IMG/VR virus record: IMGVR_UViG_2734482785_000014
Span: 1 to 12,688 of that record
Length of the DNA stretch: 12,688 nt
Source of the DNA: a virus
Lineage: Duplodnaviria > Heunggongvirae > Uroviricota > Caudoviricetes
Strand: one strand, 5' to 3'
How positions within the stretch are numbered: the first letter of the stretch is position 1; each line of letters opens with the position of its first letter. Both the position numbers and the translations under genes were made by a program. This document shows positions 5,376-5,801 of this stretch, piece by piece. The notes beneath the pieces were generated by a model. The model did not search any database. It was not told the DNA's origin and worked only from the letters and a program-made list of their open reading frames with translations.

Positions 5376-5801
5376 ATGACAGCACAGATAGCGGCTTACG
5401 GGCGGCTGGTGGCTGACCCGCAGTTAAAGACCACCAGCAAGGGAACACAAATGGCGATGGCGAGTATGGCGGTTCCCCTGCCATGCAGCCAGGCAGATGA
5501 CGGAACGGCGACGATGTGGTTATCCGTCCTGGCGTTTGGCAGACAGGCCGACGCACTGGCAAAACACCAGAAAGGCGAACTGGTGAGCGTGGCGGGTAAC
5601 ATGCAGGTAAGCCAGTGGACAGGCCAGAACGGCGAAACGCGGCAGGGCTGGCAGGTCATCGCAGACAGCGTAATCAGTGCGCGAACGGCGCGACCGGGCG
5701 GCAAAAAAGGCCAGCAGGGCCAGGCTACTGACGCACTGAACAGGGCAAAACAACAGACAGGCCAGCACGATGATCCGTACGGGGACGGAATACCGTTTTA
5801 A
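5376..5801 (+). CDS. ssb: Single-stranded DNA-binding protein (SSB-like, 141 aa)
   Basis: OB-fold-like core (YGRLVADPQLKTT...WLSVLAFGRQADALAKHQKGELVSVAGNMQVSQWTGQNGETRQGWQVIADSV), a Gly/Gln-rich linker and the C-terminal tail DDPYGDGIPF, which matches the SSB acidic-tip motif (D-I-P-F). Ribosome-binding site GGAGA at 5362-5366. Confidence 0.85.
   Translation: MTAQIAAYGRLVADPQLKTTSKGTQMAMASMAVPLPCSQADDGTATMWLSVLAFGRQADALAKHQKGELVSVAGNMQVSQWTGQNGETRQGWQVIADSVISARTARPGGKKGQQGQATDALNRAKQQTGQHDDPYGDGIPF

What the first reader, a model, noticed from the sequence alone, without database searches (positions are those of the whole stretch)
5376..5801. Element-encoded SSB with a host-like C-terminal tip
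A 141-aa SSB ending in DGIPF is encoded right after the origin. The SSB C-terminal tip is the docking site for many host replication and repair proteins. A satellite SSB with this tip could support its own replication, and could compete with or hijack host or helper SSB partners.
Basis: partly seen in the sequence, partly recalled or inferred. Interest (0 to 1): 0.4.

Follow-up and report, generated by a model that had tools for sequence, protein, structure and literature searches.

The report
Satellite-encoded SSB beside its replication origin
The gene is a real single-stranded-DNA-binding protein carried by a capsid-forming phage satellite of E. coli; it is an ordinary replication accessory that is already annotated and already listed in the satellite literature, although nobody has tested it experimentally.

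Summary
Window 5376-5801 (+) encodes a 141-aa protein that passes the curated SSB cut-offs: Pfam PF00436, 59.5 bits against 26, and TIGR00621, 61.7 bits against 53.95. The model shows a confident OB fold (residues 1-102) and a disordered tail (103-141) ending ...DDPYGDGIPF. The gene starts 50 bp after an iteron origin (5154-5325) that follows a DUF927 replicase gene. The element is a capsid-forming PICI, and near-identical copies sit inside a prophage terL gene.

The gene family occurs in 1804 of 5426 complete E. coli genomes. It always lies downstream of a replicase and iterons, across three replicase types and at least six iteron sequences. It is present in the prototype EcCICFT073 and in an O157:H7 element of EcCIEDL933 architecture. 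The OB domain is under purifying selection (dN/dS about 0.17). D137 and F141 of the tip are two of only four invariant columns in a 44-sequence alignment.

RefSeq already names the protein SSB. PMC10111431 already places 'Primase, SSB and DUF5906' in the PICI replication category. Some capsid-forming PICIs lack the gene, and EcCICFT073 pri-ori alone replicates a plasmid, so the SSB is accessory.

The idea that it competes with or hijacks host partners has no evidence. Interest is low.

The parts
3016..5139 (+). Replicase (DUF927 helicase or primase-helicase family), the initiator of the satellite replicon
   Evidence: Pfam DUF927 E=7.5e-46. PHROG 1139 'DNA primase' E=4.8e-175. Weak similarity to the SCC Cch1 replicative helicase. 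RefSeq names the orthologue a 'DUF927 domain-containing protein'.
5154..5325 (.). Iteron origin: two inverted TAACCCGCA copies (5168-5185), an AT-rich spacer (about 5186-5240) and four direct copies at 21-bp spacing (5241-5312)
   Evidence: [quoted passage not shown] The same iteron word occurs in L001, L021 and L002.
5376..5801 (+). ssb gene, 141 aa plus stop
   Evidence: It is 99% identical to the RefSeq-annotated SSB gene of L001 (WP_065749839.1).
5376..5681 (+). OB-fold ssDNA-binding domain (aa 1-102)
   Evidence: AlphaFold2 gives pLDDT 78-91 with a five-strand barrel and one helix. Foldseek top PDB hits are S. aureus SsbA/SsbB and B. subtilis SsbA, target-normalised TM about 0.76. W48, F54 and W81 align with E. 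coli SSB W54, F60 and W88.
5682..5768 (+). Short, basic, disordered linker (aa 103-131)
   Evidence: pLDDT is below 50. Length and sequence vary greatly across the family.
5769..5798 (+). C-terminal tip DDPYGDGIPF (aa 132-141)
   Evidence: Of 120 close homologues, 107 end D-x-I-P-F. D137 and F141 are two of only four invariant columns in a 44-sequence alignment that includes E. coli SSB.
5817..6098 (+). PerC-family regulator gene immediately downstream (a neighbour, not part of the SSB function)
   Evidence: Pfam PerC E=3e-35, with the match starting at residue 5 of the mechanical ORF. The RefSeq orthologue starts at the equivalent ATG.

Best explanation
The gene encodes a conventional bacterial-type SSB that belongs to the replication module of Gram-negative phage-inducible chromosomal islands (rep, iteron ori, ssb). 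This copy sits in a capsid-forming PICI.

Proposed mechanism:
- After induction, the island's replicase melts the iteron origin.
- The island SSB coats the exposed single strands through its OB fold.
- Its conserved ...D-x-I-P-F tip then docks the same host proteins that E. coli SSB recruits (Pol III chi, DnaG, PriA and others).
- This adds SSB capacity while the satellite and its helper both replicate heavily.

It is an accessory that boosts replication. It is not an essential or specificity-determining part of the replicon.

What is shown: the SSB identity, the fold, the disordered tail, conservation of the tip, synteny with rep and ori, and purifying selection.

What is inferred: ssDNA binding, oligomeric state, which host partners bind the tip, and the benefit to island replication.
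For: Family membership passes the curated cut-offs. The model has an OB fold and a disordered tail, and its structural matches are bacterial SSBs. Three of the four aromatic ssDNA-contact residues of E. coli SSB are kept.

The tip is conserved while the linker varies. dN/dS is about 0.17.

The gene is always 0.2-0.75 kb downstream of a replicase, with iterons in between. This holds in 7 E. coli loci and in 14 of the 16 loci from other species, mostly Enterobacterales. It holds across three replicase types (DUF927, 'DNA primase family', toprim) and at least six iteron words. The SSB therefore works with any initiator, as a generic replisome accessory would.

The gene family is present in 1804 of 5426 complete E. 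coli genomes. PMC10111431 independently groups SSB with the primase and the mapped ori as the PICI replication category.
Against: There is no experimental evidence for this protein. The cf-PICI and PICI papers never mention it.

The host already supplies SSB. EcCICFT073 pri-ori alone replicates a plasmid, and 5 of the 7 visible helper-embedded capsid-forming profiles lack SSB. Any contribution is therefore non-essential and its size is unknown.

The equivalents of W40 and H55 of E. coli SSB are missing. The tip carries fewer acidic residues than the host tip, so partner affinity could be lower or shifted.
Confidence: 0.75

Rival explanations
1. Interference or hijack. The satellite SSB mainly acts against the helper, or on the host. 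It would titrate SSB-interacting host proteins through its tip, or displace host SSB from helper replication intermediates, so that replication is biased towards the satellite.
For: The tip is conserved, which means it binds something. The lineage is essentially restricted to satellites: it is absent from 50,697 phage records above 31% identity and rare on plasmids. The short basic linker and the weakly acidic tip differ from the host protein. PICIs are known to carry helper-interference genes next to the replication module (PMC6092414).
Against: No data point to interference. The architecture is that of a normal SSB. A functional tip on an ssDNA-bound SSB recruits partners to that DNA rather than sequestering them. 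The gene is optional among capsid-forming PICIs, and the documented interference of cf-PICIs works through capsid and packaging. No PADLOC defence model matches.
Confidence: 0.1
2. Partner of the island's own proteins. The tip and the conserved linker segment dock the island replicase or another island protein rather than host proteins. This would resemble the SSB-like subunits that pair with polymerases or helicases in SCCmec-type elements.
For: The gene is strictly adjacent to the replicase and ori. [quoted passage not shown] A linker segment, GQQGQATDAL(N/R)RA, is conserved in Escherichia, Leclercia and Buttiauxella copies.
Against: Nearly the same SSB (87% identity) is paired with an unrelated replicase in L003. 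The SSB is 99% identical between the window and L001, while the DUF927 protein is only 88% identical. There is therefore no co-variation with the replicase. The conserved linker segment is absent from the EcCICFT073 allele and the related O157:H7 (L002) allele. The tip motif is the generic bacterial one.
Confidence: 0.1
3. Decayed or non-functional passenger ORF.
For: The gene is optional in related elements, and truncated copies exist among the homologues.
Against: dN/dS is about 0.17. The ORF is intact in every locus examined across several genera. The last residues are invariant. A ribosome-binding site is present.
Confidence: 0.03

Closest known systems
SSB genes of Gram-negative PICIs and helper-embedded PICIs, catalogued in PMC10111431; the orthologue in EcCICFT073 and the orthologue in an O157:H7 element of EcCIEDL933 architecture
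   Same: The order DUF4222, replicase, iteron ori, SSB, PerC (then the capsid module) is the same. The window protein is 70% identical to the SSB of the O157:H7 cf-PICI between roxA and phoQ (L002). EcCICFT073 carries a 136-aa orthologue in the same position (L023). RefSeq names them all 'single-stranded DNA-binding protein'.
   Different: Nothing of substance differs. This allele has a 141-aa form with the GQQGQATDALNRAKQQ linker segment and a DGIPF tip, where other alleles have DNIPF, DDIPF or DEIPF.
E. coli chromosomal SSB (178 aa; PDB 1EQQ, 1EYG)
   Same: Both have an OB fold, equivalents of W54, F60 and W88, a disordered linker, and a C-terminal aromatic-x-D-x-I-P-F motif with the terminal IPF identical.
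   Different: Identity is only 26% over the OB domain. The W40 and H55 equivalents are missing. The linker is about 29 residues and basic, where the host has a longer Gly/Gln/Pro-rich linker (about 60 residues, read from the sequence supplied). The tip is PYGDGIPF against DFDDDIPF, so it has fewer acidic residues.
SSBs of temperate Firmicutes phages, and S. aureus SsbA/SsbB and B. subtilis SsbA
   Same: These are the best phage hits by sequence (27-31% identity over the full length, including the terminal motif) and the best structural matches. They are also short proteins with short linkers.
   Different: The host phylum differs, those genes are carried by phages rather than satellites, and identity is low.
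Conjugative-plasmid SSBs (F-type, leading region)
   Same: Both are SSBs encoded by a mobile element, alongside a host that already has its own SSB. From my own knowledge, the plasmid proteins also keep the host-type tip.
   Different: The window family is not the plasmid family. Only 47 of 72,556 plasmid records match, and 41 of these are non-mobilizable (4 mobilizable, 2 conjugative). Plasmid SSBs act on transferred single-stranded DNA in the recipient (for example PMC9849209, listed), whereas a PICI enters the cell as double-stranded DNA.
Helicase-plus-SSB-like modules of SCCmec-type elements (Cch or DUF927 helicase with an OB-fold partner; PMC10061031)
   Same: Both are chromosomal islands that place a DUF927- or Cch-type replicative helicase next to a small OB-fold protein.
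   Different: Those OB proteins are non-canonical partners of a polymerase and lack the bacterial IPF tip. The window protein is a canonical PF00436 / TIGR00621 SSB.

Membership tests
Bacterial SSB family (Pfam PF00436 / NCBIfam TIGR00621) | The sequence matches the family models above their curated cut-offs | tested here: met
   PF00436 59.5 bits against 26. TIGR00621 61.7 bits against 53.95.
Bacterial SSB family (Pfam PF00436 / NCBIfam TIGR00621) | N-terminal OB fold of about 100-115 residues | tested here: met
   AF2 model residues 1-102, pLDDT 78-91. Foldseek against the PDB returns only SSBs at the top, target-normalised TM about 0.65-0.78.
Bacterial SSB family (Pfam PF00436 / NCBIfam TIGR00621) | Aromatic ssDNA-stacking residues (E. 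coli W40, W54, F60, W88) | tested here: inconclusive
   W48, F54 and W81 align with W54, F60 and W88. No aromatic residue sits at the W40 position. W48 and F54 are at least 90% conserved in the family.
Bacterial SSB family (Pfam PF00436 / NCBIfam TIGR00621) | Disordered linker followed by an acidic tip ending (I/L)-P-F | tested here: met
   Residues 103-141 have pLDDT below 50. The protein ends DDPYGDGIPF. The tip is conserved in 107 of 120 close homologues and in most full-length distant ones. It is less acidic than the host tip.
Bacterial SSB family (Pfam PF00436 / NCBIfam TIGR00621) | Homotetramer (or dimer of double-OB chains) that binds ssDNA | not testable with these tools
   Only a monomer model was possible. 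The H55 equivalent is Leu, and the beta-1 YGRL motif is conserved.
Gram-negative PICI / capsid-forming PICI replication module | The gene lies 3' of the replicase and of an origin made of two iteron sets flanking an AT-rich region | tested here: met
   with the definition from PMC6092414. The same order holds in the 12 loci checked for iterons.
Gram-negative PICI / capsid-forming PICI replication module | The element has unidirectional genes and its own capsid, protease, portal, connector, HNH, TerS and TerL, but no tail or lysis genes | tested here: met
   Window genes 6666-12688. The criteria are quoted from 10.1101/2025.02.11.637232. Tail and lysis genes are absent between the att ends in L001 and L021. 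The window itself stops inside terL.
Gram-negative PICI / capsid-forming PICI replication module | Integrase and AlpA-type regulators at the left end | tested here: inconclusive
   These lie outside the window, which starts at the Bro-N gene. They are present in the close relatives L001 and L021 (about 98% identical over the SSB region or 100% over the portal-to-HNH region, with the same gene order).
Gram-negative PICI / capsid-forming PICI replication module | Helper-phage-dependent induction, replication and transfer | not testable with these tools
   This needs an experiment. It has been shown for EcCIEDL933 in 10.1101/2022.09.08.507074.
Conjugative-plasmid (F-type) SSB | Close relative of the host SSB, encoded in a plasmid leading region | tested here: not met
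   Identity to E. coli SSB is 26%. 2344 of 2346 E. coli matches are chromosomal. Only 47 plasmid records match, 41 of them non-mobilizable.
Anti-phage defence system component | Match to a PADLOC defence model | tested here: not met
   No PADLOC hit for the SSB or for six neighbouring proteins.

The most novel reading that the evidence does not exclude
The PICI SSBs form a lineage found almost only in satellites. It has no close relative in any sequenced phage, is rare on plasmids, and is only 26% identical to the host SSB. Its short basic linker and modified tip (D-[NGDE]-IPF in E. coli; DDDF, EAPF, HESF or EPEF in other genera) may be tuned to capture a subset of host SSB partners for the satellite replisome at the helper's expense. 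That would be a replication-level interference mechanism not yet described for PICIs.
Probability: 0.1. Interest if true: 0.55.

Novelty: already known. Interest (0 to 1): 0.15.

Why it matters
It matters little as a discovery. The protein is annotated as SSB in RefSeq in more than a thousand E. coli genomes. Its place in the PICI replication module has been noted in print.

It has some practical value. About a third of complete E. coli genomes carry one to six extra SSB genes of this satellite lineage, and their function has never been tested. The prototype island EcCICFT073 and an O157:H7 element of EcCIEDL933 architecture carry the gene, and genetic tools exist for both prototypes, so a deletion experiment would be easy.

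If the tip proved to have altered partner specificity, it could explain how satellites keep replicating during helper takeover. Nothing here indicates that.

Tried and rejected
1. I asked whether the ORF could be chance or the real gene antisense. The three overlapping minus-strand ORFs have no Pfam match, and the plus-strand ORF shows purifying selection. Rejected.

2. I asked whether the SSB is specific to capsid-forming PICIs. It is not. It also occurs in EcCICFT073-type islands with a lambda-E-like capsid and decoration gene, and in a toprim-replicase island with no capsid module.

3. I asked whether the SSB co-varies with the replicase or with the iteron specificity. It does not.

4. I asked whether it comes from the host ssb or from plasmid ssb. 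It does not.

5. I asked whether it is shared with helper phages. There is no phage relative above 31% identity.

6. Defence-system membership: no PADLOC hits.

7. The search for related loci with two diverse alignments (A1, A3) failed for lack of a conserved peptide stretch. The narrower alignment A2 worked but reached only 16 loci, mostly Enterobacterales. The genomic context of the more distant relatives, at 35-55% identity, was therefore not examined.

8. The HE-PICI supplement was truncated in storage, so only 7 gene profiles could be read. A true frequency of SSB among PICIs could not be derived.

9. The structure was predicted from a shallow alignment (at least 76% identity), because only proteins from the search for homologous proteins could be submitted. 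The OB domain was still confident.

Full report
**What is there**

Window 5376-5801 (+) is an intact 141-aa ORF (MTAQIAAYGRLV...HDDPYGDGIPF, stop TAA). A GGAG lies 10 nt upstream of the ATG. The protein matches Pfam SSB (PF00436, E=3.8e-16, 59.5 bits against a cut-off of 26). It also matches NCBIfam TIGR00621 (61.7 bits against 53.95) and PHROG 44 'single strand DNA binding protein'. A sequence search of the PDB returned 27 hits, all SSBs. The best are Thermus, Thermotoga and Firmicutes proteins (E 1e-10 to 1e-7); E. coli SSB scores only 4e-5.

An AlphaFold2 model gives a confident OB barrel for residues 1-102 (pLDDT 78-91) and a disordered tail for 103-141 (pLDDT below 50). Foldseek matches the model to S. 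aureus SsbA/SsbB, B. subtilis SsbA, E. coli SSB and others (target-normalised TM about 0.65-0.78), and to phage SSB models. The three antisense ORFs that overlap the gene have no family match.

**The origin claim**

Between the replicase stop (5139) and the SSB start there are six copies of TAACCCGCA with at most one mismatch. Two are inverted (5168-5185) and four are direct at exactly 21-bp spacing (5241-5312).

**What the element is**

The window carries these genes:
- Bro-N (55-639)
- a DUF3950/YlcI-like gene (1251-1448, minus strand)
- isrK and C4 RNAs (1837-2022)
- Ash and Icd-like sequences
- DUF4222 (2720-3019)
- a DUF927 replicase (3016-5139)
- the origin, then ssb
- PerC (5817-6098)
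- a small ORF (6105-6392)
- an HK97-type packaging module: capsid (6666-7835), protease (7890-8450), portal (8452-9666), gp6-like connector (9662-9958), HNH (9958-10398), P27-type TerS (10687-11043) and TerL (11021 to the window end)

This is the architecture of a capsid-forming PICI as defined in 10.1101/2022.09.08.507074 and 10.1101/2025.02.11.637232.

The closest chromosomal copies carry the same element flanked by an integrase. In NZ_CP016546 the SSB region is 98% identical (L001), and in NZ_CP196316 the portal-connector-HNH region is 100% identical (L021). In both, the element is inserted inside a prophage terL gene. That makes it a helper-embedded PICI of the kind described in PMC10111431.

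**How general the gene is**

blastn finds the gene family in 1804 of 5426 complete E. coli genomes. In 1082 of them at least 80% of the gene is covered, and a genome can hold up to six copies. Almost all copies are chromosomal.

Annotated contexts show the order replicase, iterons, (small ORF), SSB, (PerC) in several kinds of island:
- a cf-PICI of EcCIEDL933 architecture, between roxA and phoQ in an O157:H7 strain (L002);
- the prototype EcCICFT073 (L023);
- an ATCC 25922 island at tRNA-Pro with a lambda-E-like capsid (L003);
- a toprim-replicase island without any capsid module (L004).

A scan with one genome per species found 16 further loci: E. albertii, Leclercia, Buttiauxella, Pantoea, Rosenbergiella, Rahnella, one record labelled Chryseobacterium, and one Fulvimarina MAG. 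Fourteen of them show a recognisable replicase just upstream of the SSB.

The intergenic region between replicase and SSB contains iterons in all 12 loci checked. There are at least six different iteron words and three replicase families. The SSB itself stays 61-99% identical across these 12 loci. Between the window and L001 the SSB is 99% identical, while the replicase is 88% and DUF4222 is 60% identical. The SSB is therefore a generic, exchangeable accessory of the replication module. It is not matched to a particular initiator or origin.

**The tip**

Of 120 close homologues, 107 end D-[NGDES]-I-P-F, preceded by DDP[YF]x. Full-length distant relatives (35-55% identity, 125-160 aa) mostly end P-F-D-D-x-[IL]-P-F.

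In a 44-sequence alignment that includes E. coli SSB, only four columns are invariant: G9, G74, D137 and F141. Two of these lie in the tip. The linker between them varies freely in length and sequence.

Set against the host DFDDDIPF, the window tip PYGDGIPF keeps I-P-F, the Asp at -4 and the aromatic residue at -6. It replaces two Asp residues with Gly. 'Host-like' is therefore fair for the anchor residues, but the tip is less acidic.

Outside Escherichia the tip drifts further: DDDF, EAPF, HESF and EPEF.

The OB domain is only 26% identical to E. coli SSB. It keeps the equivalents of W54, F60 and W88 but not W40 or H55. Pairwise Nei-Gojobori estimates give dN/dS of about 0.17 for the OB domain, so the gene is under purifying selection.

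**Origin of the lineage**

No record among 50,697 phage genomes exceeds 31% identity. The best matches are phages of Geobacillus, Staphylococcus and Streptococcus. Only 47 of 72,556 plasmid records match, and 41 of these are non-mobilizable (4 mobilizable, 2 conjugative). The lineage is thus essentially satellite-borne. It was not captured recently from the host, from helper phages or from conjugative plasmids.

**Mechanism**

The best-supported reading is the plain one (confidence about 0.75). This is a working SSB that coats single-stranded DNA produced at the island origin and forks. Through the conserved tip it would connect to the host proteins that normally dock on SSB. That part is inferred from established knowledge of the SSB C-terminus as an interaction hub (for example PMC10164576, listed).

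It looks accessory rather than essential, for three reasons:
- The EcCICFT073 pri-ori segment alone maintains a plasmid in DH5alpha (PMC6092414). That the clone lacked ssb is my inference from its name and description.
- In the seven helper-embedded capsid-forming gene profiles I could read from the PMC10111431 supplement, two (Salmonella) have SSB and five (Klebsiella) do not.
- The host SSB is always available.

The rivals are these:
- The tail docks the island's own replicase (about 0.1). This is disfavoured because the SSB shows no co-variation with replicase type.
- A decayed gene (about 0.03). This is disfavoured by the evidence of selection.

No PADLOC defence model matches the SSB or its neighbours.

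**Comparison with what is known, and novelty**

RefSeq annotates the orthologues as 'single-stranded DNA-binding protein'. [quoted passage not shown] '.

The main PICI and cf-PICI papers do not discuss the gene. I found no functional study.

The finding is therefore real but ordinary and already catalogued. What remains open is experimental: whether the gene contributes measurably to island replication, and whether its modified tip has a different partner spectrum.

**Verdict**

- Observation: confirmed.
- Interpretation: partly supported. The identity, position and tip are right. The replication role is plausible but accessory. Competition or hijacking is unsupported.
- Novelty: already known.
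- Interest: 0.15.

Noticed in passing
window 1837-1913 and 1935-2022 (+): Rfam matches above gathering score to isrK (80 bits) and C4 antisense RNA (75.3 bits). These are the P4-type immunity RNA and its target. They lie inside the long mechanical ORF 955-2268, whose C-terminal part matches Phage_ASH. PMC10111431 notes such hits in Gram-negative PICIs.
   Followed up: partly
window 9662-9958, compared with L001 16575-17206 and L002 13315-13946: The window's packaging module has only a gp6-like connector gene between portal and HNH. It lacks the 'head closure' (Phage_H_T_join) gene present in L001 and L002 (the O157:H7 element of EcCIEDL933 architecture). Its connector is only 56-58% identical to theirs, although the flanking genes are 98% identical to L001. 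The same variant occurs in 163 complete E. coli genomes. Whether these elements borrow the head-closure protein from the helper is unknown.
   Followed up: partly
L001 3984-5012 and 20446-21189; L021 1621-2649 and 17899-18642: In the two closest chromosomal copies, the whole cf-PICI is inserted inside the terL gene of a lambdoid, HK97-like prophage, which is left as two pseudogene halves. This is the helper-embedded PICI configuration of PMC10111431. The window probably comes from such a nested element.
   Followed up: partly
window 5817-6098 (+): A PerC-family regulator gene lies 16 bp after the SSB stop. PerC follows the SSB in many loci across genera. PICI PerC homologues have been reported to activate, ignore or repress LEE (PMC11773190).
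   Followed up: no
L004, L008, L009-L013, L014-L016 (SSB C-termini): In other genera the family's tip departs from IPF. The endings are ...PPYDDDF (one E. coli locus, L004, and Pantoea)...FDDEAPF (Buttiauxella)...YADHESF and ...DDLPPF (Leclercia), and ...FNDEPEF (Rosenbergiella). The terminal Phe and an acidic patch persist, but the Pro or Ile do not. This may mean different partner specificity.
   Followed up: no
window 5697-5759 (aa 108-128): The linker segment GGKKGQQGQATDAL(N/R)RA is conserved in Escherichia, Leclercia and Buttiauxella copies. It is predicted as a low-confidence helix at residues 116-128. It is absent from the EcCICFT073 allele and the related O157:H7 (L002) allele. No function is known.
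   Followed up: no
plasmid records H82 (NZ_CP033626, 22.9 kb), H83 (CP088587, 32.6 kb), H94 (CP031371, 21.8 kb): Several small records deposited as plasmids carry this satellite-type SSB. They may be circular, excised satellites or composite elements rather than true plasmids.
   Followed up: no
window 3016-5139 compared with L001 9914-12040: Mosaicism sits around a constant SSB. Between the window and L001, the SSB is 99%, the capsid 99% and TerL 98% identical, but the DUF927 replicase is 88% and DUF4222 only 60% identical. This points to recombination breakpoints inside the replication module.
   Followed up: no
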